Part shown: positions 1 through 11,589 of the stretch, one piece after another | Layout of the letters: every line of letters starts with the position of its first letter | Position numbering within the stretch: the stretch's first letter is position 1 | Notes under the pieces: model-generated | Seen by the model: only the letters and a program-made list of their open reading frames with translations | Told to the model about the DNA's origin: nothing | Database searches by the model: none | Origin: an uncultured Mollicutes bacterium | Lineage (GTDB): Bacteria > Bacillota_I > Bacilli_A > RF39 > UBA660 | Assembly: GCA_947652375.1 (NCBI GenBank) | Contig: CANTCS010000001.1 | Coordinates: forward strand, 132,976-196,975 | Length of the DNA stretch: 64,000 nucleotides | Direction of reading: 5' to 3' | Translations under genes and position numbers: made by a program

Positions 1-218
1 ACCATTTTTATAATAGATAATATAGTAACTATCATTTTATTTAAATTTGCTAATTTAATATGGAAAGTTAATCTAGCTTTCTTTATATACTATAGTTATT
101 TTATATCTATTACAATATGTATACTAATATTGTTTATTACTTTATACCTGATCCATAAAATTAAAAATACAAAAATATTAAGTCAATTATATACAAATTA
201 ATAGTATTTAACTTATAA

Positions 219-253
219 AAAACACGATGTTAGTTAATCGTGTTATTTTTTTG
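219..253. terminator. Rho-independent terminator, bidirectional (stem ACACGAT/ATCGTGT; A-run 5' and T-run 3')
   Basis: Read in sequence: aaaaaacacgatgttagttaatcgtgttattttttt. On the minus strand it follows the stop of the CAP-domain gene. Confidence 0.6.
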
Positions 254-357
254 TATCATTGTATACTCTTCCAATTAAATAATCAAATGAAATATTAGAA
301 CATTGAAATATAATTATTAAATTGTTATTAAAATTAGACAAAAAACAAATAAATTTG

Positions 358-1383
358 CTAATAATTCATCTTAAAAGAAGTTACAGCATACCACATTCCA
401 TTTACTTCATATACGCTTACCGCCATTGCAACATTCTGTTCTCTAAGCATTGTTGCATTATGAGATGGACTATTCTTCCAAGCCGTAATAAAATCAGAGC
501 CTATTCCACCATAACCAATATTTTCACCAAATCCATATCCTGCACCATCATGAGAATAATTTATTGATATCTCCTTAGATCTTCTATCAGCTTCTGATTG
601 AGTTTCAGAAGTATTTGGTAGTACAGACAAGCCATTTTCTTTTCTATATATATTTATCTGATTGGCAAAGGAATTAGAAATATCTTGACGATATTTAGGA
701 GAAGTAGCAGTGTTGTTATTAGTTATATTGTTAGATGGTTTAGATGATGGGGTTGTTGTCGATTTTGAATTATTTTTAGCTGGTTTCTTTTCTGAAACTT
801 TTGATTGCTCTTCTGTTTTCTTTTTAATTTTTAATATAAAATTCTTTGAAGTTATATTATTGTTTTCATCTTCAGCTACAACTTTTAATTTGTATTCTCC
901 AACTATTTTAAGATTATATTCTCCTTCTATTAAAACTTTTACTTTGGTTAAGTCTTTTGCTTCAAAATAAGTAGTTAAATCTAACTTATCTTCTGTTTCT
1001 TCAATTTCTATAGTATCTTTAAATGAAGAAAATTCTGGTGCAATAGTATCTTTTACTTTTATTACAAAATCAATTTTTTTCTTTTTGTAACTAATAGTTA
1101 TTTTATACTCACCTACTGGAACTAACTCTAATTCATCCATAACAAATAAATCATTATCCTTCTTTAATGATTCTGAAGATAGTTTATAATCTTTTATATT
1201 CTTAGTAGCATCAGTATCTTTTAAATAATTAGATACATCAGAACTAATTTTTTCTCCTAATTCATAAACGAATTCTTCTTTTTTTAATTCTATTTTATAT
1301 GTATTTTTATACACAATAAATAATCCTACTAAAAATATAATTAGTATTATAATAGGTATTACTATCTTTAAGATACGCTTCAT
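358..1383 (-). CDS. Secreted/membrane-anchored CAP (SCP/PR-1, YkwD-like) domain protein with N-terminal TM and Ig-like/Thr-Ser-Asn-rich linker
   Basis: 341-aa ORF. N-terminal hydrophobic segment. C-terminal motif GYGFGENIGYGG...AWKNSPSHNATML...VYEVNGMWYAVTSF, typical of CAP/YkwD domains. RBS GGAGGAG upstream. Confidence 0.7.
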   Translation of the reverse strand: MKRILKIVIPIIILIIFLVGLFIVYKNTYKIELKKEEFVYELGEKISSDVSNYLKDTDATKNIKDYKLSSESLKKDNDLFVMDELELVPVGEYKITISYKKKKIDFVIKVKDTIAPEFSSFKDTIEIEETEDKLDLTTYFEAKDLTKVKVLIEGEYNLKIVGEYKLKVVAEDENNNITSKNFILKIKKKTEEQSKVSEKKPAKNNSKSTTTPSSKPSNNITNNNTATSPKYRQDISNSFANQINIYRKENGLSVLPNTSETQSEADRRSKEISINYSHDGAGYGFGENIGYGGIGSDFITAWKNSPSHNATMLREQNVAMAVSVYEVNGMWYAVTSFKMNY

Positions 1384-1410
1384 AATTTACTCCTCCAAAC
1401 CTCTATGTCC

Positions 1411-1432
1411 TTGTGGTAATAAATTACCACAA
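1411..1432. repeat. Perfect palindrome TTGTGGTAAT-AA-ATTACCACAA. Its right half carries the putative attR core TTACCACAA (1424..1432)
   Basis: The 9-bp core is identical to the last codons plus stop of secA at 7405..7413. Flanks also match (about 15/19). See mobile element. Confidence 0.55.
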
Positions 1433-1445
1433 TATTTAATTCTAT

Positions 1446-1907
1446 TTAATCCAAGTAGAAATGATAAGTTCTTTCATAAATAAATTCCACTTGATTTGAA
1501 TAAACAGCTAAATAGAAATATGCTCTATTTTTATATCTTCTAATTGTTCTTTCTGATATTTCAAGTTTATCAGAAATTTCTCTATCCGTATAGCCGTATA
1601 AACATTTCATTCTTAGAAATTCTCTAATTGTTCTGTCTTCGTTTTGAATTCTAAAAATACTTCTTATATAATTTGCTATCTGATCTTCATTCCAAGATAA
1701 ACTTTTTAACAATCTATCAGATGACGCTGAACCTGTGGAAGCTCCAGAAAATACAACAATACTTGCTGAATTAAAGGTTTTAGTATTTAGTTGCCTTAAC
1801 CTTTTTTCAACTAAAGGTTGATATAATTCACAAATTTCCTTTCCTTTTATGACTGTTTTATCCATATCTATTTTTGATATAATTTCTTTATCAAAAATAT
1901 TAATCAT
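1446..1907 (-). CDS. ArpU-family phage transcriptional regulator (sigma-70 region-4-like HTH)
   Basis: 153 aa. C-terminal ...TIREFLRMKCLYGYTDREISDKLEISERTIRRYKNRA... resembles sigma region 4 / ArpU late-gene activators of Firmicute phages. Start overlaps stop of the upstream csp-like gene. Confidence 0.55.
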   Translation of the reverse strand: MINIFDKEIISKIDMDKTVIKGKEICELYQPLVEKRLRQLNTKTFNSASIVVFSGASTGSASSDRLLKSLSWNEDQIANYIRSIFRIQNEDRTIREFLRMKCLYGYTDREISDKLEISERTIRRYKNRAYFYLAVYSNQVEFIYERTYHFYLD

Positions 1908-2164
1908 TATTCAGAATCCATATTATCTTCTTCTGCATTGGATTCTTCTTCAGTTATTTTACGAACATTTATTGCTTTTTGTTTTTCTTCGTCATAATCA
2001 AAAATTACTGAATCATTCTCATCCAAAGTTTTAAATCCTTTCATTTGGATATCAGAAAAATGTACATATATATCATTTTCTATTTCACTACATGAGAGAA
2101 ATCCATATCCTTTCTCACTACTAAACCACTTAACATTACCTTTCATATTTACTTTTTCTTGCAT
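1907..2164 (-). CDS. Cold-shock-domain protein with acidic C-terminal tail (island cargo)
   Basis: MKGNVKWFSSEKGYGFL...DIYVHFSDIQ... CSD motifs, followed by a D/E-rich tail. RBS AAGGAGA 9 nt upstream of ATG at 2164. Confidence 0.75.
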   Translation of the reverse strand: MQEKVNMKGNVKWFSSEKGYGFLSCSEIENDIYVHFSDIQMKGFKTLDENDSVIFDYDEEKQKAINVRKITEEESNAEEDNMDSE

Positions 2165-2790
2165 ACTTTGCTTTCTCCTTTTCTATTCTTATTAACATCT
2201 GTACTACCTACTGCCAAATCATATAAACTATCAATTCTTTTTATTAAAAAATCAATAGCAAATACTAATAATGCAATAATTACTGCTAAATAGAAACTTC
2301 TCATTAAACTGCCTAACATCACAAAATTATAGGTTAATAGTGAACTTATTGGCAAAAATAATAATCCTTTAGCCATTATTGAAATAATCTTTTTTAAAGA
2401 GTATTTTCTTCTTCTACTAACATATAGAACTACAAACCACGACATAATAAAAGTTATAATGTAAGTATCAAAGACAAATTTTTTAAAAGCGTCTATATTC
2501 ACCAAAGCAACTCCCTCGTTGCAATACTTTAATCTGTTAAATAGATGAAATATAGTATTTGTAGATAAACATAAACAATATAGAATAAATACTAATAATA
2601 AAATATTCAATATTACTTTTAAAATTAATGATAACTTATGATAATTACGCATTCGCTTATTATTGCCTTCATTACACCAATAATTTTCTGAACTACTACT
2701 AAACAAATCTTTATAAAACTGCTTTACCTTTGCTTTAATATTTGTTCCTCCCTCTTTAAATCTCCAATGATACGGATAAAGCTTCATCAA
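2149..2790 (-). CDS. Hypothetical integral membrane protein (about 4 TM) with cytoplasmic N-terminus
   Basis: 213-aa ORF with several hydrophobic stretches. Overlaps the csp-like start by 16 nt and the MazF-like stop, so it is translationally coupled within an operon. Confidence 0.5.
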   Translation of the reverse strand: MMKLYPYHWRFKEGGTNIKAKVKQFYKDLFSSSSENYWCNEGNNKRMRNYHKLSLILKVILNILLLVFILYCLCLSTNTIFHLFNRLKYCNEGVALVNIDAFKKFVFDTYIITFIMSWFVVLYVSRRRKYSLKKIISIMAKGLLFLPISSLLTYNFVMLGSLMRSFYLAVIIALLVFAIDFLIKRIDSLYDLAVGSTDVNKNRKGESKVCKKK

Positions 2791-3079
2791 CTTTTTTCAT
2801 AGTTTTTTCATCTAATGTTTTAATGTAAGAAATTATTTGCTTCTTTGAAATAGTTAAAATACATTCACACAAAGCCATTTGATATGGTGTTATTACAACA
2901 TGTACAGGCATATTAGTCTTTTTAATTTTTGTTGTTAATGGTACAACAATTAGTGTTGGCGAAAAAGTATTACCCTGATTGTTTTGAACAATTAAACAAG
3001 GTCTTATTCCGTTTTGAACATGATCATAGGAATCATTTAATTCAGCTAAAAATATATCTCCTTTTTTAAAGTTTTTCAT
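2756..3079 (-). CDS. mazF: MazF/PemK-family mRNA interferase toxin
   Basis: GDIFLAELNDSYDHVQNGIRPCLIVQNNQGNTFSPTLIVVPLTTKIKKTNMPVHVVI matches the MazF/PemK fold signature. Likely start is MKNFKKGD at 3079 (the ORF extends to 3103). Confidence 0.75.
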   Translation of the reverse strand: MKNFKKGDIFLAELNDSYDHVQNGIRPCLIVQNNQGNTFSPTLIVVPLTTKIKKTNMPVHVVITPYQMALCECILTISKKQIISYIKTLDEKTMKKVDEALSVSLEI

Positions 3080-3339
3080 ATATAATAACTTTTGACCACA
3101 CATTCTACCTCTAAGATATAATAAGCATCTATTGGATATTTTACTCTTCGCTTATATCTATATTTATTTTCATATATTATTTTAAGAATACATGAATACC
3201 CTTCTTGTTCCAAAACTTCTATAATTTTTTCTCTACCGATTTTCTTGACTATATCTCTGCCACAACAACAATTGCCATATTTTCTTAAATGATGCAATAT
3301 CCAATCAGGGATTTTAATATTTTCTTTTGAAAACTTCAT
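3076..3339 (-). CDS. Small Cys/His-rich protein immediately upstream of and overlapping mazF. Putative non-canonical antitoxin
   Basis: 87 aa, HHLRKYGNCCCGR motif. No resemblance to MazE/PemI (AbrB or RHH). Position and overlap are typical of antitoxin-toxin pairs. Confidence 0.4.
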   Translation of the reverse strand: MKFSKENIKIPDWILHHLRKYGNCCCGRDIVKKIGREKIIEVLEQEGYSCILKIIYENKYRYKRRVKYPIDAYYILEVECVVKSYYI

Positions 3340-3560
3340 TTTGTTCCCCTCTCGAATCTTTTTAAACTATCCTTATTAAATCTAATTCAAATTGACTACC
3401 AACTTCAAAGAATTTTATTTCATCATCTCCATCAAATAAATAATAAACTTTGTTATTTATTACTTTAATGATAGTTAGAAAATACCCATGGTTATCAGAT
3501 AAGGTATTATATATTTTATACCTTTCCTTCTCTTTATAGTTTATTTAATCACCTCTTTTA

Positions 3561-3697
3561 GTTCATGATAGTAAACTTTTCTAATTAAAAAATAAAATAT
3601 ATTACTACATCTAAATGTGAAAAGTTTATAATACCTTTTCAAAGCACAATAACATCTACCACCTCCACTAAATCTAAAGTAGTTCACGATAGTAAAC
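3561..3697. repeat. Two direct copies of a 16-19 bp motif (TA)GTTCAYGATAGTAAAC(T) at 3561..3576 and 3682..3697
   Basis: Read directly. Related inverted copies occur at 4438..4453 and 4481..4496. Operator- or iteron-like. Confidence 0.6.
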
Positions 3698-3815
3698 TCT
3701 TTATACTAAAATAATAACCTTTTATTTAATAAAAGTCAATAACTTATTTTTATTTTTTATTTTTATAAACAAAACTGTATAGAATATCTATACAGTTCGT
3801 ACACACTTCAGTATT

Positions 3816-4118
3816 TTATGAATTTAATATTTTATCTAAAACATCTAAGGTTTTATCTAAGGATTCTTCATCTTCAACTGAAATTGTACTCACAGTACCA
3901 ATTATTTCTAATAGTCTTTCTAATTTTACTGCTGAAGAATTACAAAATAAAAGTTCTTTTTTCGTTTTATTGTAATCAGTTTCAATTTCCAAAATCTTTT
4001 TTACAACTTCTTCCATTACTTCATAAGGTATATCTTTCTTTTCTTCAAGATACTTTTCAATTTTTACTCCTAAAACTACTTCTACTTCTTTTACTGCATT
4101 TCTTTCTTCTTTAGTCAT
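3816..4118 (-). CDS. Hypothetical helical protein (island)
   Basis: The ORF runs to 4184 but the likely start is MTKEERNAV at 4118 (RBS AAGGAA about 10 nt upstream). It sits 3 nt after the stop of the upstream 64-aa ORF. Confidence 0.4.
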   Translation of the reverse strand: MTKEERNAVKEVEVVLGVKIEKYLEEKKDIPYEVMEEVVKKILEIETDYNKTKKELLFCNSSAVKLERLLEIIGTVSTISVEDEESLDKTLDVLDKILNS

Positions 4119-4120
4119 TT

Positions 4121-4315
4121 TTATTTTTCCTTTCCAATTGGTACTGCTTCTTGTGATGCCTTCTCCCTCAACTGCTTTAGACATACTTCCAAGATCTGAA
4201 TCACAGATTCATCATCCAATTGGCTTGTTGTACTTAGTTCTATATTTTTATTTGCAACTAAAATTTTGATACAACTCATCTGTTTTGAAGACTGCCCTTT
4301 ATTCAAAAATTTCAC
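4121..4315 (-). CDS. Hypothetical small protein (island)
   Basis: 64-aa ORF, first gene of a leftward operon divergent from the XRE-like gene. Confidence 0.3.
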   Translation of the reverse strand: MKFLNKGQSSKQMSCIKILVANKNIELSTTSQLDDESVIQILEVCLKQLREKASQEAVPIGKEK

Positions 4316-4437
4316 CTGCCTTTCTAATAGTCAGGATGAAAGTATCACCCATCTTACTATTTTCATTGCCTTACTCCTCCACTTCAAATATATAGTTTAA
4401 TACTATATAAAATATTTTATCATTTATTTCTTTTTGT

Positions 4438-4496
4438 GTCTACTATCGTGAACTTATTTTGGCTTTTATTGATTAATTAGGTTCACAATGGTAGAC
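4438..4496. promoter_or_regulatory. Inverted repeat GTCTACTATCGTGAAC (27 bp) GTTCACAATGGTAGAC in the divergent promoter region. Putative operator
   Basis: Read in sequence. The half-sites relate to the direct repeats at 3561/3682. Located between divergently transcribed genes (4315 minus, 4555 plus). Confidence 0.5.
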
Positions 4497-4554
4497 AATA
4501 TTATAAAAAAATAGTACAATGTTGATGATGTGATTATAACGAAAGGAGATAAAA

Positions 4555-4956
4555 ATGACTAAAGAAGAAGCCATCAGGTTTATAATTTCCGATTATTGTA
4601 AAATTCATAAAATTACGCCTACACAATTTGCAAGAGAAAGTGGGATTAGTAAAGCCTATATGAGTAAGATTATGAAAAAAAAGTATGGCAAAGTTGGTAT
4701 TTCCATGACTTATACTGAATTAATAGCTAAAGGAATGAAAATGAATATGATTGATTTTCAAAAATTAATTGAACAGTATAAGGAAAAAAATAATAGCACC
4801 AATTATAACCACGATACTGATATTCTTATAGCTCAAATTAATAATGAACTATATAATTTATCAAAAGAAGACTTAGAAGTAATACATAGTATTATAGTGA
4901 ATTCTGATTCTGGAAAATTAGATATTCTACATAATGTTTTGAAAAATATGAAATAA
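4555..4956 (+). CDS. XRE-family HTH transcriptional regulator (phage repressor/cro-like)
   Basis: ITPTQFARESGISKAYMSKIM helix-turn-helix. RBS GGAGA upstream of ATG 4555. Confidence 0.55.
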   Translation: MTKEEAIRFIISDYCKIHKITPTQFARESGISKAYMSKIMKKKYGKVGISMTYTELIAKGMKMNMIDFQKLIEQYKEKNNSTNYNHDTDILIAQINNELYNLSKEDLEVIHSIIVNSDSGKLDILHNVLKNMK

Positions 4957-4972
4957 CATATTTTTTTATTTT

Positions 4973-5836
4973 TTAATAATCTCTATCATAAAAGTCGTTT
5001 TCTTCTTCAAATTCAAGCTCCTTAAACCAACCAGTTTCTGGATCTATTTCCAATTTATCATTTATTCTTAATCTTTCAATGCAATTATTAATTGCTCCTT
5101 GAAAAAATCCAAACTTATTCTCTACTTTGTTACCATTTTCATCAATAAAATGTTTTGAAACTACTATTGGCACAATATAATGTGTCATTTTAACTAGATC
5201 CTTATATGAGTGTCCTTGCTGCAATAAATTTTCAAAATAATTGTCGTAATTGTATATATCAGTATCATATTCATCTATATAATTTTTTTCAATTAAATAA
5301 AGAGTTAAAGGATTTAATTCATCTAAATCGACGAATGGCAAATTTTCTTTAACTCTTTTAACTATTTGTTCTTTAATATTTTGTTTATTAGTATTTATTT
5401 GGGTATCCTTTTCGGCATCTCCTTCAACGGTATTCCCTTTTTGGGCATCTGGATTATCCTGTTGTTTTTCAACCTCTAATGGAATTTCACGAATAATATA
5501 TTCGTACTTATAATATCCTTTATCTCCTCTTGTTTGTTGTATTTCTAAATAGCCATGTTCTTTAAGTTCATTAAGTATAGTTCTTATGGCTTTAATATTT
5601 TCTTTACTAACTGCTACTAACCCTTTCATAGAGTAATCCCAATCTTCAGGCAAACTTAACATGAATGATAGTAGACCTTTTGCTTTATAAGAAAGATTTC
5701 TATCTTGCAAATGATAATTGCTCATAACTGTATAATTCTTTTGTTTTTTTATTTTAAATACTGCCATTACAATCACCCTTTCTTTTATTTTTAAACATTT
5801 AAAAAAGAACTGAATCTTGTCCAGTTCTATATTCAT
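4973..5836 (-). CDS. Replication initiator protein A N-terminal (RepA_N)-type winged-helix initiator
   Basis: FKIKKQKNYTVMSNYHLQDRNLSYKAKGLLSFMLSLPEDWDYSMKGL...ELKEHGYLEIQQTRGDKGYYKYEYII matches RepA_N of Firmicute plasmids, ICEs and phages. Confidence 0.6.
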   Translation of the reverse strand: MNIELDKIQFFFKCLKIKERVIVMAVFKIKKQKNYTVMSNYHLQDRNLSYKAKGLLSFMLSLPEDWDYSMKGLVAVSKENIKAIRTILNELKEHGYLEIQQTRGDKGYYKYEYIIREIPLEVEKQQDNPDAQKGNTVEGDAEKDTQINTNKQNIKEQIVKRVKENLPFVDLDELNPLTLYLIEKNYIDEYDTDIYNYDNYFENLLQQGHSYKDLVKMTHYIVPIVVSKHFIDENGNKVENKFGFFQGAINNCIERLRINDKLEIDPETGWFKELEFEEENDFYDRDY

Positions 5837-5852
5837 ATAATAACAGTTGTTA

Positions 5853-7166
5853 TCACGAAATTGATTCTGTAGGTTTCCTTGCTATAGCAATTTCTAAAGA
5901 GTCTGCATAATCTTCAAATTTACTAACTACTTCTTCTTCCATTTGAATTGTAACTCTTACATAAATGTTATAAGTTGTTTCAATCGTACTATGTCCTAAT
6001 CTTTTTGAAACAGCTTTTATATCTGCTCCTGCTTCAATTAGTCTAGTTGCATGTGTATCTCTAAAATCGTGAAATCTGCAAGGTATTCCTAACTCATAGT
6101 GAATTACTTTAAATGGATATTTACAAGTATTATTTCCCTCAAATGCTCCATTATTTTTTATAAATACTAAGTGTACTTCAGGTAAAGCAACATCAATTTC
6201 TGCAATACAATCAACTATTTTAGTTTCTGGTTTATTTGTATATGGATTTAAAACTTCTTTAGCATAATGTTTGATGTATGAATCTCCATATTGTTCTTTA
6301 TATATTTCTTGCTCTTCTTTAAATTCTTTTAAAGCAGCTGCTAATGTATCTCCAATATCAATTGTTCTGTAACTAGCTTTTGTTTTACACGGACCAAAAT
6401 ACCAAACAGTAGTCCTTTGCCCTTTTATAAGTCTGTGCTTTGTTCCACCCACTTGATTTTTTTCAACAATATTTTTATTTACTGTTAATTTCTTGTTTTC
6501 TAAATCAATGTCTTCCCATGTCAATCCAAATACTTCTGAAATTCTAAGCCCAGTATAATATGCCGTTAAAAAAGCATAATATATACAATGACTATTTTTA
6601 AATCTATTAAAAATCATTTCTATTTCTTCTGGTGTAAAAATATGAGCTGGATCTTCATCTGGACCATCATATCTTGGTAATCTTATTTTCAATGCTGGAT
6701 TATGCTTAATGAATCCGACACCATCTTCAGCATAAGCGAATGATGATTTTAAAACTTTCATTATACTTTTTAAAAAGTTTTTTGATACTCCTTTATTCAA
6801 AAATACATCTGTAAGAAAGTCATTTAATGTAGCTGTATCTATTTGCGATAACCTATAAAATCCTAGTTTTGGTTTAACATGATTTTTAATAATGCTTTTA
6901 TATGCCTCTATCGTATTATACCTTAGATTAATTTGACAATAGTTAGCCATCCAATAATCCAAAAAATCTGCATATGAACATGTATTAGGAGAAAATTTTT
7001 TACCTGTATTCATATATTCATTAAATGCTTTCATACCAGCAACATAAGCATCCTGCTTTGTCTTGAAACCTGACTTGTTAATAAACTTTCTAACTCCACC
7101 TTGTGGAGCTATTTCAAATCTATATTGATATAGATTTCCTCTTTTTGTTACATTCACTTTTCCCAT
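5853..7166 (-). CDS. int: Tyrosine-type site-specific recombinase / phage integrase
   Basis: C-terminal HDFRDTHATRLIEAGADIKAVSKRLGHSTIETTYNIYVRV (H-x-x-R...Y catalytic motifs). N-terminal arm-binding-like domain (GKVNVTKRGNLYQYRFE...). Confidence 0.85.
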   Translation of the reverse strand: MGKVNVTKRGNLYQYRFEIAPQGGVRKFINKSGFKTKQDAYVAGMKAFNEYMNTGKKFSPNTCSYADFLDYWMANYCQINLRYNTIEAYKSIIKNHVKPKLGFYRLSQIDTATLNDFLTDVFLNKGVSKNFLKSIMKVLKSSFAYAEDGVGFIKHNPALKIRLPRYDGPDEDPAHIFTPEEIEMIFNRFKNSHCIYYAFLTAYYTGLRISEVFGLTWEDIDLENKKLTVNKNIVEKNQVGGTKHRLIKGQRTTVWYFGPCKTKASYRTIDIGDTLAAALKEFKEEQEIYKEQYGDSYIKHYAKEVLNPYTNKPETKIVDCIAEIDVALPEVHLVFIKNNGAFEGNNTCKYPFKVIHYELGIPCRFHDFRDTHATRLIEAGADIKAVSKRLGHSTIETTYNIYVRVTIQMEEEVVSKFEDYADSLEIAIARKPTESIS

Positions 7167-7196
7167 AACTTCCTCCTCTAAATTTCTTTAGAGAAC

Positions 7197-7220
7197 GAAA
7201 AAATCAGCACGAATGCTGAT
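7197..7220 (-). terminator. Rho-independent terminator (stem ATCAGCA/TGCTGAT, then T-run on the minus strand) between secA and int
   Basis: cgaaaaaatcagcacgaatgctgat read in sequence. Would terminate secA read-through before int. Confidence 0.55.
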
Positions 7221-7274
7221 TATTGTGAATTTGTGTTCATTGAAAAATCCCTTGTTTTATAAGGCTTAGAGCAA

Positions 7275-7326
7275 TTGTGTGCATTAATTTTTTATTTTAC
7301 GCACACAAATTGCACACAAGTGTGCA
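7275..7326. promoter_or_regulatory. Clustered inverted repeats TTGTGTGC-N16-GCACACAA and TGCACAC-AA-GTGTGCA upstream of int
   Basis: Read directly. GC-containing palindromes in an otherwise AT-rich spacer inside the element near attL. Candidate int promoter operator or recombination-directionality / arm-type sites. Confidence 0.4.
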
Positions 7327-7400
7327 TTTTTAACTGTTTTTTGCCTATTTTTTTGACTTTTTTTACTACTGCACTACTTCACAAACCCTTATAAATTAAG

Positions 7401-9896
7401 TTATTTACCACAACATTGTTTATACTTCTTGCCTGAGCCGCAGCTGCAAATTTGATTTCGACCTATTTTTTGACTTCTTTTTGGTTGTTTTTTAGTAGTT
7501 TTTTCTTCTTTATCATTTGTTATTATTTTTTTTGTTGTTTCTTTTCTTTCTATATTTTGTCTTATTTCTGCTTTAAGTAAGAATATTGAAACATCTTTGT
7601 CTATTTTTTGTAGCATAGAATCAAATAAATCAAATCCTTCCATAGTATAAGCTCTTAAAGGATCTTCTTGAGCATAACCACGTAGGTGAATTCCTTCTCT
7701 TAAATGAGACATAGTGTTAATATGTTCCATCCAGTAATTATCTAGTACTTGTAATGTTATAACTTTTTCGAATTCTTGAACTATTTCTTCAGGTAAATCT
7801 TTAATTTTCTCTTCATATTCTTCTATAACTTTTTTAGATAAAAAGTCAATTAACTCGTTTGCTTCTTTATCTTTAATATCTTTTTCCGATAAATCAATTT
7901 TTAATAAGTTTTCATTAACAAACTCTGTTATCTCTCTAATATCATCCTCTGTTAAATAGTTTTCTGGTGGAATATGAGAATTAACTAAATCTTCTATATG
8001 ATGTCTATAGGTAGTTAAAACCATTTCATGTATTGATGTGTTATCTAAAATCTTATTTCTTTTTTCATAGATAATTTCTCTTTGATTATTCATAACATCA
8101 TCATATTGTAGTAAGCTTTTACGAATATCAAAATTATTTCCTTCTACTCTTTTTTGCGCTGTTCCAATTGATTTAGTGAATGTTTTACTTTGAATTGCTT
8201 GTTCTCCTAAACCCATTGACTCCATCATTGCACCAATTCTATCTGATCCAAAACGAACCATTAAGTCATCTTTCATCGAAACAAAGAATTGAGTATATCC
8301 TGGATCTCCTTGACGTCCTGAACGTCCACGCAATTGATTATCAATACGACGTGACTCATGACGCTCAGTTCCAACCACACACAAACCACCTAGTTCTTTT
8401 ATTTCATCTGATAATTTAATGTCTGTACCACGACCTGCCATATTTGTAGCAATAGTTACTGATTTACTTTGACCTATTTTTGAAATAATTTCTGCTTCTC
8501 TTTCATGATTTTTTGCATTTAAAACTTCATGAGGAATATGTGCTTGTTTTAACAATCTGCTAATTAGTTCACTTGTTTCAATAGCAATTGTTCCAATTAA
8601 TACAGGTTGCCCTTCATTATATCTTTCTTTTACAAACTCTATTACTGCTTTATATTTTGCTTCTTTTGTAGCATAAACTAAATCAGGAGCATCGATTCTA
8701 ATAACATCTTTATTAGTTGGAATTTCTATAACATACATATTATAAATGTTTCTAAATTCTTCTTCTTCAGTCTTTGCAGTACCTGTCATACCTGATAATT
8801 TTTTATACATTCTAAATAAATTTTGAAATGTAATTGTTGCTAAAGTTTTTGTTTCTTGATTAATATTTACGCCTTCTTTGGCTTCGATAGCTTGATGTAG
8901 TCCATCAGAATATGCTCTACCTTTCATTAAGCGTCCAGTAAATTGATCAACTATTACTATTTCGCCATCTTGAACAACATAATCTACATCATTGTTCATT
9001 GCGTAATTAGCACGAAGAGCTTGGTTTATAAAATGAAGTAATGTTGCATTATCTACATCATAAAGATTTTTTATTTTAAACATTTCTTCGGCTTTATCTG
9101 CTCCTAATTCTGTTAAGTTAACACTCTTTGTTTTTTCATCAAATATAAAATCTTTTTCAATAGTTAAACTTTTAGCATATTTATCTGCACTAGTATAAAG
9201 ATTTACATTAGACATTTCTCCACCAGATATAATTAAAGGTGTTCTTGCTTCATCAATTAAAACTGAATCAACTTCATCTATGATTGCAAAGTTTAGAGGT
9301 CTTTGAACTCTTTCTTCTTTTTTAACTACCATATTATCTCTTAAATAATCAAATCCTATTTCATTATTTGTAGAATATAATATATCACAATTGTACGCAG
9401 TTTGTTTTTCTTCTGATGTCATATCTCTTGTATTTACTCCTACTGTTAAACCTAGGAAACGATGAATTCCACCCATCCATTCAGCATCACGACTAGCTAG
9501 ATATTCATTTACAGTTATAATATGAACTCCATCTCCACTTAAGGCATTTAAATATGCAGGAAGAACAGATGTTAAGGTTTTTCCTTCTCCTGTTTTCATT
9601 TCTGAGATATTTCCATAATGTATTGCAAGTCCACCTAAAATTTGGACAAAATAATGTTTTTCTCCTATAACACGAAATGATGCTTCTCTTGCTGTTGCAA
9701 AAGCTTCTACTAAGATATCTTCTAAAGTTTCTCCTTTACTTAATCTCTCTTTAAATTCGTTTGTTTTATTTTGTAGTTCTGTATCAGTTAATTTTGAATA
9801 TTCTTCTTCTAATTCAAGAATTTGATTTGCTAGAACATTAAATCTTCTTAATTCTTTATACTCATGATCGAATAATTTTTTTAATATATTCATCAT
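7401..9896 (-). CDS. secA: Preprotein translocase ATPase SecA
   Basis: 831 aa. DEAD-like motor motifs. C-terminal zinc-binding CSCGSGKKYKQCCGK. Confidence 0.97.
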   Translation of the reverse strand: MMNILKKLFDHEYKELRRFNVLANQILELEEEYSKLTDTELQNKTNEFKERLSKGETLEDILVEAFATAREASFRVIGEKHYFVQILGGLAIHYGNISEMKTGEGKTLTSVLPAYLNALSGDGVHIITVNEYLASRDAEWMGGIHRFLGLTVGVNTRDMTSEEKQTAYNCDILYSTNNEIGFDYLRDNMVVKKEERVQRPLNFAIIDEVDSVLIDEARTPLIISGGEMSNVNLYTSADKYAKSLTIEKDFIFDEKTKSVNLTELGADKAEEMFKIKNLYDVDNATLLHFINQALRANYAMNNDVDYVVQDGEIVIVDQFTGRLMKGRAYSDGLHQAIEAKEGVNINQETKTLATITFQNLFRMYKKLSGMTGTAKTEEEEFRNIYNMYVIEIPTNKDVIRIDAPDLVYATKEAKYKAVIEFVKERYNEGQPVLIGTIAIETSELISRLLKQAHIPHEVLNAKNHEREAEIISKIGQSKSVTIATNMAGRGTDIKLSDEIKELGGLCVVGTERHESRRIDNQLRGRSGRQGDPGYTQFFVSMKDDLMVRFGSDRIGAMMESMGLGEQAIQSKTFTKSIGTAQKRVEGNNFDIRKSLLQYDDVMNNQREIIYEKRNKILDNTSIHEMVLTTYRHHIEDLVNSHIPPENYLTEDDIREITEFVNENLLKIDLSEKDIKDKEANELIDFLSKKVIEEYEEKIKDLPEEIVQEFEKVITLQVLDNYWMEHINTMSHLREGIHLRGYAQEDPLRAYTMEGFDLFDSMLQKIDKDVSIFLLKAEIRQNIERKETTKKIITNDKEEKTTKKQPKRSQKIGRNQICSCGSGKKYKQCCGK
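7405..7413. repeat. Putative attL core TTACCACAA overlapping the secA stop codon
   Basis: Identical 9-mer at 1424..1432 with similar flanks. Confidence 0.55.
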
Positions 9897-10629: not shown

Positions 10630-11163
10630 TTATTCTGACTCAATTAAACCATAATTTCCATCTGTTCTTTTATATACTACAGTTGGTTTATTAGTTTCAC
10701 TATCTTTATACATATAAAATTCATGATTTAGTAATTCCATTTGAAGAATTGCTTCTTCTTCATTCATTGGTTTTACTTCGATTGTTTTTCTTTTAATAAT
10801 TTTATGTTCGTCTTCAATTTCTTCTTTAAAATCAATTTTTTCAAAATTAAAGTCATAACTAGCTTTATTTTGTTTTGCCATTAATTTTGTTTTGTTTTTT
10901 CTTACTTGTCTTTCTAATTTATCAATTGTTTTATCAACAGCTGCATAAAAATCTTCTTTTGTTTCTTCTGATCTTAGAATAAATGATTTTAAAGGTATGG
11001 TAATTTCTACTGTTTGTTCATGATTTTTTACTTTTACTATGACATTTGCACGAACGGCATCACTTTTTTCTAGATATTTTTCTAACTTTCCTAGCTTTTC
11101 ATTTATATAATCTTTCATAGCATCAGTAATTTGCATTTTATCTCCTCTGATGATAATTTCCAT
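10630..11163 (-). CDS. hpf: Ribosome hibernation promoting factor, long form
   Basis: MEIIIRGDKMQITDAMKDYINEKL... aligns with the long-HPF N-terminus. C-terminal dimerisation domain present. Confidence 0.9.
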   Translation of the reverse strand: MEIIIRGDKMQITDAMKDYINEKLGKLEKYLEKSDAVRANVIVKVKNHEQTVEITIPLKSFILRSEETKEDFYAAVDKTIDKLERQVRKNKTKLMAKQNKASYDFNFEKIDFKEEIEDEHKIIKRKTIEVKPMNEEEAILQMELLNHEFYMYKDSETNKPTVVYKRTDGNYGLIESE

Positions 11164-11214: not shown

Positions 11215-11436
11215 CTATATTATAGTAGCAGCTTCGTTAACTAATTTTACATTTATTGCTTGAAATCCCTTGCTTGTTTCAATTAGTTTGAATTCTACTA
11301 ATTGATTTTCTGATAAAGTTTTGTATCCATCTAATTCAATTGCTGAGTAATGAACAAAAATATCTTCATTTTCTCTAAAACCAATAAAACCATAACCTTT
11401 ATCATTATTGAACCATTTCACGCGTCCAGTCATCAT
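11215..11436 (-). CDS. csp: Cold shock protein (CspA family)
   Basis: MTGRVKWFNNDKGYGFI...FVHYSAI motifs. Confidence 0.9.
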   Translation of the reverse strand: MMTGRVKWFNNDKGYGFIGFRENEDIFVHYSAIELDGYKTLSENQLVEFKLIETSKGFQAINVKLVNEAATII

Positions 11437-11589
11437 ACCTCTATAGCACCTCACATTCTACCATCTATTATTTCTATTGGTGATTTAATCTTAACAAATA
11501 TTTCCTTAATTTATTAATTTTTCTATAAATTGCTTTTTTTGAGAATGTTTTTGAGATGATTTCTACATTTTTCGACAAATTAGAATATT

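What the first reader, a model, noticed from the sequence alone, without database searches (positions are those of the whole stretch)
1446..2790. Overlapping tricistronic cargo: membrane protein, acidic-tailed cold-shock-domain protein, ArpU-like regulator
Three ORFs are translationally coupled: a 16-nt overlap, then a 1-nt stop/start overlap. They are a 4-TM protein with a cytoplasmic N-domain, a CSD nucleic-acid binder with a D/E tail, and a sigma-region-4-like ArpU-family regulator. ArpU normally activates phage late genes, but no late genes are present here. This arrangement is not a described module. It could be a phage-sensing, regulatory or abortive-infection unit. It could also be a hijacking function of a satellite, for example redirecting helper late transcription.
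Basis: inference. Interest (0 to 1): 0.6.

Follow-up and report, generated by a model that had tools for sequence, protein, structure and literature searches.

The report
Conserved regulatory operon of a mobile island
The three overlapping genes are real, but they are not cargo: they are the end of a longer, strictly conserved operon in the backbone of an undescribed mobile island of uncultured gut bacteria, and the cold-shock-type protein and phage-type activator most likely switch on the surface-protein gene that always follows.

Summary
The three minus-strand ORFs and both overlaps (16 nt and 1 nt) are confirmed. The grouping and the "cargo" reading are not.

- **Element:** The genes lie in an integrase-bearing element inserted in the 3' end of secA. 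In 39 of 39 related loci the order is fixed: Int, Rep, XRE, two small ORFs, an 87-aa ORF, MazF, membrane protein, CSD, sigma-like protein, CAP surface protein. Variable cargo begins only after CAP.
- **Mobility:** The same element (99.7% identical) sits in at least three genomic contexts.
- **Membrane gene:** It starts at a conserved ATT/ATA codon (window 2739), not at the listed TTG.
- **Sigma-like protein:** It is a small, basic, distant ArpU/Ltr relative, below the family cutoff.
- **Promoter:** The operon's promoter is followed by two copies of a 15-bp operator-like repeat. Two more copies lie at the XRE divergent promoter.
- **Remote relatives:** Relatives at 22–34% identity keep two adjacencies: CSD then regulator, and regulator then a homologous Ig-like surface protein.

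Best reading (about 0.5): this is a repressor-controlled early operon whose last gene activates the next unit. The target, the CSD role and the membrane protein's function are inferred. A satellite role is not excluded. I saw no virion genes in at least 17 kb, but a lysis cassette lies beyond the window edge.

The parts
7401..7482 (-). 3' end of secA (SEC-C zinc-motif codons). This is the integration junction: the last ~13-27 codons of secA are supplied by the element.
   Evidence: Identity to the same element in other hosts begins at window 7469 (L058), 7482 (L013) and ~7439 (L012). Upstream secA is only 65-76% identical.
5853..7166 (-). Tyrosine integrase, 437 aa.
   Evidence: Pfam Phage_integrase 88.6 bits plus Phage_int_SAM_3; phrog_1 E 4e-73. 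It sits next to secA in 9 of the fetched loci.
4973..5836 (-). Replication initiator-like protein (HTH_36, DnaD-like).
   Evidence: Pfam HTH_36 31.3 bits; phrog_4707 and phrog_428 replication initiation, E 1e-20.
4555..4956 (+). XRE-type HTH regulator, the only backbone gene on the opposite strand. Putative repressor.
   Evidence: HTH_26 E 1.4e-3, phrog_8. Present in 35 loci at the same position.
4439..4495 (.). Inverted pair of operator-like 15-mers (4439-4453 and 4481-4495) in the divergent XRE / early promoter region. Promoter-like sites are at 4442-4414 (-) and 4492-4520 (+).
   Evidence: The positions are conserved in most lineages and the motif sequence changes with lineage.
3816..4315 (-). 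Two small early ORFs of unknown function: about 53-64 aa (4121-4315) and about 100 aa (3816-4118).
   Evidence: Conserved in 34-35 loci. No family hits.
3772..3798 (-). Terminator-like hairpin with a T tract, after the small early ORFs.
   Evidence: 12-pair stem followed by TGTTTAT.
3711..3739 (-). Promoter-like site TTGACT-17-TATTAT. Candidate promoter of the operon that holds the three ORFs.
   Evidence: 10 of 12 matches. It lies directly upstream of the operator-like repeats.
3561..3696 (-). Two direct copies of the 15-mer TTTACTATCRTGAAC (3682-3696 and 3561-3575), 121 nt apart, downstream of that promoter.
   Evidence: (D3). In most lineages the copies sit about 357 and 237 nt before the 87-aa ORF.
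3362..3544 (-). Small conserved ORF (homologue of the 62-aa 'c11' family). In this window it has no canonical start codon (ATA follows an AGAGGTGAT Shine-Dalgarno) or is frameshifted.
   Evidence: Family alignment. The window frame was read by hand.
3076..3339 (-). 87-aa ORF with an invariant GNCCCGR motif. Putative antitoxin, by position only.
   Evidence: ATGA overlap with mazF Met9. Conserved in 35 of 35 loci (33 by ORF call, 2 more by tblastn). No family match.
2756..3103 (-). MazF/PemK-type endoribonuclease toxin. The likely start is Met9 at 3079.
   Evidence: Pfam PemK_toxin 87.8 bits; phrog_1936 E 1e-23. Present in 35 of 35 loci.
2149..2739 (-). 4-TM membrane protein, 196 aa, pI 9.9, with a Lys-rich C-terminal tail. 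It starts at a conserved non-canonical ATT (2739-2737), 7 nt after GGAGG (2751-2747).
   Evidence: Family of 37 clusters, no Pfam, PHROG or PADLOC match and no fold match.
1907..2164 (-). Cold-shock-domain protein, 85 aa, with a 15-residue acidic tail (TEEESNAEEDNMDSE). It overlaps the membrane gene by 16 nt.
   Evidence: Pfam CSD 74.6 bits; the RNP1 (KGYGF) and RNP2 (VHF) motifs are present; the tail is conserved in character in all lineages.
1446..1907 (-). Sigma-region-4 / ArpU-like (Ltr-like) small basic regulator, 153 aa, pI 9.0. TAATG overlap with the CSD gene.
1411..1432 (-). Conserved stem-loop without a U tract, between the regulator and the CAP gene.
   Evidence: 94.6% of cells paired; 5 of 9 pairs show compensatory changes; 0 of 500 shuffles reach the covariation score.
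1384..1408 (-). Nearly invariant ACATAGAAG motif (1408-1401 here) followed by the GGAGGAG Shine-Dalgarno of the CAP gene. ACAT and the next A are invariant; the following positions are at least 90% conserved.
358..1383 (-). Membrane-anchored surface protein: N-terminal TM segment, Ig-like region, Ser/Asn/Pro-rich linker, C-terminal CAP (SCP/PR-1) domain. Last backbone gene and candidate target of the regulator.
   Evidence: Pfam CAP 24.9 bits. Present in 40 of 41 loci. The N-terminal half is homologous to genes downstream of remote regulator relatives.
1..201 (+). C-terminal 66 codons of an FtsX-like permease. This is the first gene of the variable cargo region, and the element runs off the window here.

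Best explanation
The three ORFs are the distal part of a six- or seven-gene, repressor-controlled "early" operon. Its order is small ORF, 87-aa ORF, MazF, 4-TM protein, CSD protein, ArpU/Ltr-like regulator. The operon belongs to the invariant backbone of an undescribed family of integrative elements. These elements insert into the SEC-C-motif end of secA in uncultured gut Bacilli.

Proposed working:
1. In the integrated state the element's XRE protein occupies four copies of a 15-bp operator, two at its own divergent promoter and two just downstream of the operon promoter.
2. On derepression the operon is transcribed and its cistrons are translated in a coupled chain.
3. The last product, a small basic sigma-region-4 protein, acts like a phage late-gene activator (Ltr/ArpU type). 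It switches on the next transcription unit, whose first and invariant gene encodes a membrane-anchored Ig-like surface protein with a CAP head.
4. The CSD protein is the regulator's dedicated partner. It is probably an RNA chaperone or antiterminator acting on the conserved stem-loops in the transcript.
5. The 4-TM protein is a family-specific accessory kept at low dosage by an AUU/AUA start codon. Its role is unknown (exclusion or holin-like).
6. The 87-aa ORF with MazF acts as an addiction or growth-arrest pair.

Shown: gene content, couplings, synteny, mobility, motif positions, hairpin covariation, distant ArpU homology. Inferred: who binds the operators, the regulator's target, the CSD role, the membrane protein's role.
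For: **Backbone status.** 39 of 39 loci carry the membrane, CSD and regulator genes in the same order. 35 of 35 carry MazF and 40 of 41 carry CAP. Block comparisons put the conserved/variable border exactly at the CAP stop codon (L025 vs L028).

**Mobility.** The window's element is 99.7% identical over at least 17 kb in three different contexts. Element divergence does not follow host secA (rho -0.77, n=8).

**Ltr-like features**, as defined in PMC3753634: small, basic, last gene of the early cluster, under repressor control, C-terminal DNA-binding domain.
- 153 aa and pI 9.0.
- Sigma region-4 fold.
- Full-length sub-threshold ArpU alignments for the protein and its remote relatives.
- Operator-like repeats at the operon promoter, shared with the XRE promoter.

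**Functional linkage.**
- Regulator identity tracks CSD (rho 0.87) and CAP (0.80) more than Rep (0.44) or Int (0.58).
- In remote lineages at 22-34% identity, a CSD gene overlaps the regulator gene in 2 of 9 (L043, L047).
- In 3 of 8 remote lineages with enough downstream sequence, a homologue of the CAP N-terminal half follows the regulator (L043, L051, L052).

**Conserved RNA or DNA signals.**
- A stem-loop with covariation lies between the regulator and CAP.
- A similar hairpin lies before the L051 homologue.
- A conserved ATT/ATA start follows a perfect SD for the membrane gene.
Against: - No direct evidence that the regulator acts on the CAP promoter.
- I found no Ltr-type direct repeats upstream of CAP, and synonymous sites at the regulator's 3' end are not unusually conserved.
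- The only promoter-like site there (TTATCA-17-TAGAAT) is weak and overlaps coding sequence. CAP may simply be read through from the operon.
- The operator-like repeats could instead be Rep iterons, or sites for the regulator itself.
- The regulator scores below the curated ArpU cutoff and has no tblastn relative in 50,697 phage records.
- Structure models are of moderate confidence (pLDDT 69).
- The CSD-regulator adjacency holds in only 2 of 9 remote lineages.
Confidence: 0.5

Rival explanations
1. Satellite hijack. The element is a phage satellite, and the ArpU-like protein (with the CSD protein) acts in trans on a helper phage's late operon. It would turn on or redirect helper packaging and lysis genes for the island's own transfer.
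For: - Int, Rep and a repressor are present, but no capsid, terminase, relaxase or T4SS gene appears in at least 17 kb.
- Nearly identical copies sit in different hosts.
- The window's lineage carries a phage-type endolysin and holin but no virion genes.
Against: - No relative of the regulator was found in IMG/VR contigs or in 50,697 phage genomes. A hijacker would be expected to resemble its helper's specificity domain.
- The regulator co-evolves with the cis-linked CAP gene, which is conserved even in remote relatives.
- No packaging-redirection genes were found.
- The far end of the element is unseen.
Confidence: 0.17
2. Defence or abortive-infection unit. MazF, the membrane protein and the CSD protein form a phage-triggered growth-arrest or membrane-damage system, with the sigma-like protein as its sensor or regulator.
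For: - A MazF toxin lies directly upstream.
- A membrane protein with restricted translation could be toxic.
- CSD effectors occur in retron systems, with weak hits to retron Se72 effector (E 1.6e-4) and PADLOC CSD_V (E 6e-6).
Against: - Beyond those weak CSD hits, none of the three proteins nor MazF matches a PADLOC defence model.
- The genes are invariant and colinear in every member and diverge with the backbone. Defence genes in islands normally sit in variable hotspots, and here that hotspot begins after CAP.
- The CSD-regulator pair recurs in phage-like early regions without MazF or the membrane protein.
Confidence: 0.1
3. Transfer-operon switch of a larger conjugative or mobilizable element. 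The regulator activates surface-adhesin and transfer genes, as regulators at the head of Gram-positive conjugation operons do.
For: - Remote relatives sit after ParA-ParB modules and before large SpaA/Flg_new surface proteins and a T2SSE/VirB11-type ATPase (L050, L051).
- In L007-L010 a 1113-aa SpaA protein lies downstream.
- The invariant downstream gene is a surface protein.
Against: - No relaxase, coupling protein or T4SS component appears in any of the ~40 core-family loci within 10 kb, nor in 17 kb of the window's own element.
- The region after CAP is mosaic and often on the opposite strand.
Confidence: 0.13

Closest known systems
Ltr superfamily of phage late-operon activators (ArpU, RinA, LtrA/sigma70_r4, LtrB/DUF1492, LtrC; Quiles-Puchalt et al. 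2013, PMC3753634)
   Same: - A small basic protein with a C-terminal sigma-region-4-like DNA-binding domain.
- Encoded as the last gene of the early cluster, apparently under repressor control and immediately before the next transcription unit.
- Full-length but weak alignment to the ArpU model.
   Different: - It scores below the ArpU and Pfam cutoffs, and no phage homologue was found by tblastn.
- The downstream gene is a surface protein, not terS.
- I found no 7-nt direct-repeat binding region.
- It is translationally coupled to a CSD gene.
- It resides in an element with no virion genes in the 17 kb examined.
Phage-inducible chromosomal islands and other phage satellites
   Same: Integrase at one end, a divergently transcribed repressor-like gene, a replication initiator, site-specific insertion in a conserved gene, nearly identical copies in different hosts, and a variable accessory region.
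   Different: - Int and Rep are co-directional with the main operon.
- No primase-helicase, terS, capsid-size or packaging-interference genes.
- Absent from IMG/VR.
- Helper dependence is untested and the far boundary is unknown.
CspA-family cold-shock proteins acting as RNA chaperones or transcription antiterminators (CspE/CspA/CspC)
   Same: A full CSD with RNP1 and RNP2 motifs. The best NCBIfam hit is the CspE antiterminator model, E 1.8e-19.
   Different: - It scores far below the equivalog cutoffs (69.6 against 120 bits).
- It carries a conserved 15-residue acidic tail.
- It is encoded inside a mobile-element operon and overlaps both neighbouring genes.
MazEF type II toxin-antitoxin modules on mobile elements
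   Same: A PemK/MazF toxin preceded by a small overlapping ORF (ATGA overlap).
   Different: - The upstream 87-aa protein has no MazE/AbrB/RHH signature and carries a GNCCCGR motif.
- The pair is embedded in a longer operon rather than being autonomous.
Tn916 regulatory region (orf9 antisense HTH, orf7 sigma-like, orf8)
   Same: From my own knowledge, not tested here: an antisense XRE-type gene together with a small sigma-region-4-like protein that controls downstream element functions.
   Different: There is no conjugation module, no sequence comparison was made, and the gene order and partners differ.

Membership tests
ArpU family (NCBIfam TIGR01637) / Ltr superfamily | Profile score at or above the curated cutoff. 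| tested here: not met
   19.8 bits against a 43.1 cutoff, though aligned over 12-135 of the protein and 4-128 of 136 in the profile. Remote relatives reach 33.8 bits. phrog_248 'transcriptional activator' E 1.1e-7.
ArpU family (NCBIfam TIGR01637) / Ltr superfamily | C-terminal sigma-70 region-4-like HTH domain. | tested here: met
   Sigma70_r4_2 E 4.3e-5 and GerE E 4.6e-5, both just under the gathering score. The model's C-terminal domain superposes on SigE/SigD region 4, TM to target 0.66-0.74. BFVD hits are small phage 'Sigma-70 region 4' proteins, E 7e-3.
ArpU family (NCBIfam TIGR01637) / Ltr superfamily | [quoted passage not shown] | tested here: inconclusive
   153 aa, pI 9.0, and the last gene of the operon. 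Repressor control is inferred only from operator-like repeats shared with the XRE promoter.
ArpU family (NCBIfam TIGR01637) / Ltr superfamily | Lies just upstream of terS and activates the packaging/lysis operon through direct repeats. | tested here: not met
   The downstream gene is a CAP-domain surface protein. No terminase was found in at least 17 kb and no repeat region was found. Activation itself is not testable here.
CspA-family cold-shock proteins | CSD domain above the Pfam cutoff, with RNP1 and RNP2 motifs. | tested here: met
   74.6 bits against 27. KGYGF and VHF are present in all lineages.
CspA-family cold-shock proteins | Single-domain protein of about 65-70 aa that meets an NCBIfam equivalog cutoff. 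| tested here: not met
   85 aa with a 15-residue acidic tail. The best equivalog, CspE, scores 69.6 against 120 bits.
MazEF type II toxin-antitoxin | PemK/MazF toxin domain. | tested here: met
   PF02452 87.8 bits against 23.1.
MazEF type II toxin-antitoxin | Cognate antitoxin of a known antitoxin family directly upstream. | tested here: inconclusive
   An 87-aa ORF overlaps by ATGA and is always present, but it matches no Pfam, NCBIfam or PHROG family.
Phage satellites (PICI-like) | Integrase, repressor and replication module between att sites. | tested here: inconclusive
   Int, XRE and Rep are present and the left junction is mapped to the secA 3' end. The right att site was not found within 17 kb.
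Phage satellites (PICI-like) | Packaging or capsid-redirection genes (terS, cpm, ppi, capsid genes). | tested here: not met
   None was seen among the conserved genes or in the 17 kb of the window's element.
Phage satellites (PICI-like) | Induction and packaging by a helper phage. | not testable with these tools
   The only indirect check is that no relative was found in IMG/VR viral contigs.
Known anti-phage defence systems (PADLOC) | A match of the component proteins to defence-system models. | tested here: not met
   No hit for the membrane protein, the regulator or MazF. The CSD protein has only a weak CSD_V hit, E 6e-6.
Holins | Small membrane protein with a charged C-terminus that matches a holin family and is paired with an endolysin. 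| tested here: not met
   The protein has 4 TM segments and a Lys-rich tail but no Pfam or PHROG holin match and no viral fold match. A bona fide Phage_holin_4_1 gene lies elsewhere in the element.

The most novel reading that the evidence does not exclude
This is a new family of horizontally spreading integrative islands of uncultured gut Bacilli that target the SEC-C zinc-motif codons at the end of secA. Their life cycle is driven by a previously unrecognised three-part switch: an acidic-tailed cold-shock-domain RNA chaperone translationally coupled to a divergent ArpU/Ltr activator, which turns on a modular surface protein with CAP, GH25 or other heads. The same switch exists in remote phage-like and plasmid-like elements. 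In the window's lineage it would also fire a lysis cassette in an element that has no virion genes. That would make the element a satellite-like or lysis/vesicle-dependent transfer element.
Probability: 0.25. Interest if true: 0.65.

Novelty: new variant of a known kind. Interest (0 to 1): 0.45.

Why it matters
If the reading is right, three things follow.
- It defines the regulatory core of an undescribed mobile-element family that is widespread in gut metagenomes. The window's CAP protein alone is indexed in 112 blocks of the assembly collection, and relatives occur in human, goat, roe deer and rabbit samples.
- It extends the phage late-activator (Ltr/ArpU) principle to elements without virion genes.
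- It gives a first concrete, testable role for the cold-shock-domain proteins that many phages and islands carry, as coupled partners of a late activator.

The conserved AUU/AUA start of the membrane gene and the SEC-C-motif integration site are also directly testable features. It does not answer a long-standing question, and the individual protein families are ordinary.

Tried and rejected
1. **TGTGATATAAT as the regulator's promoter.** The motif lies just after three remote regulator genes and before the distal operon of the window's element, so I tested it as a regulator-specific promoter. It also occurs in host DNA (window 58978) and scattered in other loci. It is the generic Gram-positive TRTGnTATAAT sigma-A promoter.
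2. **The stem-loop and ACATAG as -35/-10 elements.** The spacing varies from 13 to 22 nt between lineages, which argues against a promoter and for an RNA-level element.
3. **Synonymous-site conservation at the regulator's 3' end.** I looked for hidden binding sites and saw no excess.
4. **Phage genomes with a CSD gene next to an ArpU gene.** The best CSD hits in the phage collection are unannotated, high-GC, host-like contigs with no regulator gene downstream.
5. **Other negative searches.** The regulator has no tblastn match in phages and no relative in IMG/VR. The membrane protein has no fold match in BFVD, and the AFDB library was unavailable. Rfam found nothing in 1-7600.
6. **Finding attR.** There is no second copy of the secA 3'-end core within 16-17 kb, and no prfB landmark in any flank.
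7. **Literature.** I found no paper linking ArpU with cold-shock proteins or describing such islands.
8. **A MazF-membrane fusion by frameshifting.** I considered this and set it aside in favour of simple initiation at ATT/ATA.
Full report
**1. The observation**

The three minus-strand ORFs are present as described: 2149..2790, 1907..2164 and 1446..1907. The 16-nt overlap (2149-2164) and the TAATG stop/start overlap at 1907 are in the sequence.

- The middle ORF is a clear cold-shock domain: Pfam CSD 74.6 bits against a cutoff of 27.
- The last ORF has a sigma-70 region-4 type helix-turn-helix: Sigma70_r4_2 E 4.3e-5 and GerE E 4.6e-5, both just under the gathering score. It aligns end to end, but weakly, with the ArpU model: TIGR01637 19.8 bits against a 43.1 cutoff. 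It also matches PHROG 248 "transcriptional activator", E 1.1e-7.
- The first ORF has four hydrophobic segments and four long helices in an AlphaFold model with pLDDT 69.

**2. Where the genes sit in the window**

The ORFs lie in an integrated element. Reading the minus strand from secA (7401-9896) the order is:

- tyrosine integrase (5853-7166)
- HTH_36/DnaD-like replication initiator (4973-5836)
- XRE-type gene on the opposite strand (4555-4956)
- two small ORFs
- an 87-aa ORF (3076-3339)
- a PemK/MazF toxin (2756-3103)
- the three ORFs
- 62 nt later, a membrane-anchored CAP-domain protein (358-1383)

**3. Comparative genomics**

The regulator and the membrane protein belong to very small families. 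There are 54 and 37 clusters among 5.8 billion proteins. A profile of the regulator finds only 61 representatives at E ≤ 1e-3 among 1.84 billion.

I collected about 40 loci from uncultured gut "Bacilli"/"Tenericutes" MAGs from human, goat, roe deer and rabbit samples. The order Int/Rep, XRE, two small ORFs, 62-aa ORF, 87-aa ORF, MazF, membrane, CSD, regulator, CAP is strictly colinear in them. The counts are:

| Feature | Loci with it / loci with enough flank |
|---|---|
| Membrane and CSD genes upstream of the regulator | 39 / 39 |
| MazF | 35 / 35 |
| CAP downstream | 40 / 41 |
| 16-nt membrane/CSD overlap | 31 / 40 |
| 1-nt CSD/regulator overlap | 37 / 40 |

Downstream of CAP the content is mosaic: HTH genes, ABC-transporter cassettes and unknown small genes, often on the other strand. 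Between L025 and L028 the 96.5%-identical block ends exactly at the CAP stop codon. The three ORFs are therefore backbone, not cargo.

**4. Mobility and integration site**

The window's element is 99.7% identical from the last codons of secA onward to copies in three other contexts:

- a host with a different secA neighbourhood (L058)
- a window-like host (L060, L062)
- a site directly behind another excisionase-integrase element (L061)

L012 and L013 share 16 kb at 99.97% with unrelated left flanks. Their host secA is only 65% identical to the window's, while element proteins are 88-100% identical.

The junction lies at window ~7440-7482, inside the SEC-C zinc-motif codons of secA. In L013 the same junction closes a different small ORF that ends in a SEC-C motif. 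Several MAG contigs break at this point. The window's left edge is still inside the element.

**5. The membrane gene starts at a non-canonical codon**

Every lineage has (A/G)GGAGG followed 6-8 nt later by ATT or ATA, and then a conserved peptide (IKxxVKQFYxDL...EGNNKRM). Synonymous differences within that peptide indicate it is translated. In L001, L012, L034, L037 and L039 an in-frame stop lies upstream of the SD, and no ATG, GTG or TTG occurs before the conserved peptide.

The start is therefore most likely ATT at 2739-2737. The protein is 196 aa, has pI 9.9 and a Lys-rich tail, and does not overlap mazF. From established knowledge, AUU starts (as in infC) give low, IF3-sensitive translation, which suggests dosage limitation.

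The protein has no Pfam, PHROG, NCBIfam or PADLOC match and no viral fold match. It is absent from the remote relatives' loci.

**6. The regulator**

The model has one long N-terminal helix, a disordered linker and a C-terminal helical domain. That domain superposes on ECF sigma region 4: 2h27 and 3vfz, TM to target 0.66-0.74, Foldseek probability 0.99 but E about 0.3-0.5. In BFVD the best matches are small (120-165 aa) phage proteins labelled Sigma-70 region 4, aligned over about 130-150 columns, E 7e-3 and up.

The protein is basic, with pI 9.0. Remote relatives also align full length to the ArpU model below the cutoff, up to 33.8 bits. No tblastn match exists in 50,697 phage records. I regard it as a distant branch of the ArpU/Ltr superfamily, not a member by the curated criterion.

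**7. Regulatory anatomy**

- A 15-mer, TTTACTATCRTGAAC, occurs at 3561-3575 and 3682-3696 (direct, 121 nt apart) and at 4439-4453, with a weaker partner at 4481-4495 (inverted pair). Three matches were found against 0.61 expected.
- In most lineages the sites hold the same positions: about +60 and +102 from the XRE start, and about -357 and -237 from the 87-aa ORF. A few lineages showed fewer or none at the search threshold. The motif itself changes with lineage: TCCACTATCGTGAAC, TTTACTAGTGTAAAC, or the palindromic TTTACTATTGTAAAC.
- A terminator-like hairpin (3798-3772) follows the two small early ORFs. A promoter-like site (3739-3711) precedes the direct repeats.

This looks like a two-promoter immunity switch, with the operon of interest under the same control as the early promoter. 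Which protein binds is inferred.

- Between the regulator and CAP lies a stem-loop (1411-1432) without a U tract. It is conserved in 18 distinct sequences: 94.6% of cells paired, compensatory changes at 5 of 9 pairs, and 0 of 500 shuffles reach the covariation score. Slid controls pair at 29-46%.
- The stem-loop is followed by a nearly invariant ACATAGAAG and the CAP Shine-Dalgarno.
- Rfam has no match.

**8. Remote relatives define the natural units**

Nine remote regulator lineages (22-34% identity) were looked up.

- **CSD then regulator.** In L043 the setting is integrase, repressor-like gene..., SNase, SSB, 141 aa, CSD, regulator. In L047 it is SNase, CSD, regulator. In both, a CSD gene overlaps the regulator gene, by 32 and 14 nt.
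- **Regulator then surface protein.** In L043, L051 and L052 a protein homologous to the N-terminal TM + Ig-like half of the window's CAP protein lies 0.25-1.7 kb downstream of the regulator (E 4e-20, 2e-18, 8e-14). These proteins carry different C-terminal heads.
- **Alternative heads.** A closer homologue, P0177, carries a GH25 muramidase head instead of CAP.
- **Similar hairpin.** L051 also has a GTGG...CCAC hairpin just before that gene.
- **Plasmid-like settings.** Other relatives sit after ParA-ParB and before large adhesins and a T2SSE-type ATPase.

Within the core family, regulator identity correlates best with CSD (rho 0.87) and CAP (0.80). It correlates less with Rep (0.44), Int (0.58) and XRE (0.50), and not with host secA (-0.77, n=8). 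The real functional units are therefore the CSD-regulator pair and the regulator-surface-protein pair. The membrane protein is a family-specific insertion, and the 87-aa ORF with MazF is a separate pair.

**9. Beyond the window edge**

In copies of the same element the DNA continues as follows:

- an FtsX/FtsX/ABC-ATPase cassette on the reverse strand
- a lipoprotein and small secreted proteins
- a 752-aa PG_binding_1 + GH25-like protein
- an M23 + CW_7 + LysM endolysin-like protein
- a Phage_holin_4_1 holin

The statement that no late genes are present is thus a window artefact as far as lysis genes go. However, I saw no terminase, capsid, tail, relaxase or T4SS gene in at least 17 kb, and the right end was not reached. 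This distal part is lineage-specific, not family-wide.

**10. Mechanism proposed**

This is a repressor-controlled early operon. Its last gene encodes an Ltr-like activator for the following unit (CAP, and possibly distal genes). The CSD protein acts as a coupled RNA chaperone or antiterminator. The membrane protein is kept at low dosage by AUU/AUA initiation. MazF acts as an addiction or arrest function.

Unshown steps are binding of XRE to the repeats, the regulator's target, the CSD role and the membrane protein's function. I found no Ltr-type direct repeats upstream of CAP and no synonymous-site constraint there, so CAP may be read through rather than separately activated.

**11. Rivals**

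- **Satellite hijack of a helper's late genes.** This fits the lack of transfer genes and the recent spread. There is no viral-contig or phage relative, and the regulator co-evolves with a cis-linked gene.
- **Defence or abortive infection.** This has only circumstantial support (MazF, weak CSD_V and retron Se72 hits). It conflicts with the invariant backbone position.
- **Conjugative or mobilizable switch.** This is suggested by the remote relatives' plasmid-like settings, but no transfer genes were seen in the core family.

**12. Novelty**

The protein families are known. What is new is the arrangement and the element family:

- a CSD gene coupled to a divergent Ltr-type regulator
- a modular surface protein that follows it
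- a conserved AUU/AUA-initiated membrane gene
- SEC-C-motif integration

I found no description in the searchable literature. I rate it a new variant of a known kind, of moderate interest.

Noticed in passing
window 2737-2752; the same site in L001-L042: The membrane gene appears to start at a conserved non-canonical ATT/ATA codon, 6-8 nt after a perfect GGAGG. Five lineages have in-frame stops upstream and no canonical start before the conserved peptide.
   Followed up: yes
window 7401-7482; L013 4368-4508; L061 2154-5531: The integrase targets the SEC-C zinc-motif codons at the 3' end of secA and rebuilds them. In L013 the same junction closes a different small ORF that ends in a SEC-C motif. 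In L061 the element sits in tandem directly behind another excisionase-integrase element.
   Followed up: partly
window 1401-1432: A stem-loop without a U tract shows compensatory changes at 5 of 9 pairs across 18 sequences. It is followed by a nearly invariant ACAUAGAAG before the CAP Shine-Dalgarno. ACAU resembles known MazF cleavage motifs (my own knowledge), and a MazF gene lies in the same operon. This is untested.
   Followed up: partly
window 3561-3575, 3682-3696, 4439-4453, 4481-4495: Four copies of a 15-bp operator-like motif hold conserved positions in most lineages, and the motif sequence changes with lineage. They could be repressor operators or Rep iterons.
   Followed up: partly
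window 3362-3544 (-): The homologue of a conserved 62-aa ORF ('c11') lacks a canonical start in this window. A stop precedes an ATA codon that follows an AGAGGTGAT SD, and the GTG used in other lineages is in another frame. It is either a second non-canonical start or a frameshifted pseudogene.
   Followed up: partly
L058 11183-21008 (DNA to the left of window position 1): The element continues off the window. It carries an FtsX/FtsX/ABC-ATPase cassette, secreted small proteins, a 752-aa PG_binding_1 + GH25-like protein, an M23+CW_7+LysM endolysin-like protein and a Phage_holin_4_1 holin. No virion genes were seen.
   Followed up: partly
L012 11619-15813 and L017 14041-18229: The ABC-transporter cassette is shared at 89% identity between two otherwise diverged elements, at different positions in the variable region. 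It appears to be an exchangeable cargo cassette.
   Followed up: no
window 358-1383; P0177; L043 8313-9515; L051 5191-6210; L052 3594-4706: The surface protein is modular.
   Followed up: partly
window 3076-3339: The 87-aa putative antitoxin has an invariant GNCCCGR(E/D)IVKK motif and a C-terminal ECxV motif. It has no family match and may be a new metal-binding antitoxin type.
   Followed up: no
L025, L031, L037 (record titles): Three loci with this Bacilli-type secA-Int-...-CAP arrangement come from MAGs labelled Bacteroidaceae or Muribaculaceae, and others from MAGs labelled Clostridiales/Clostridia. Contig mis-binning is the likely cause.
   Followed up: no
L001-L006, L015-L017, L037: In several lineages the block starts at Rep, directly after a tandem pair of seryl-tRNA synthetase genes, with no integrase. 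In L001, L002 and L003 a discrete 9.0-kb block (Rep to an HTH_26 gene) is shared between different flanks. How these copies move is unexplained.
   Followed up: partly
window 11215-11454 (-) and 10630-11163 (-): The host has its own plain cold-shock gene and an hpf (Ribosomal_S30AE) gene just upstream of secA. The element's CSD gene is therefore an extra, divergent copy with an acidic tail.
   Followed up: no
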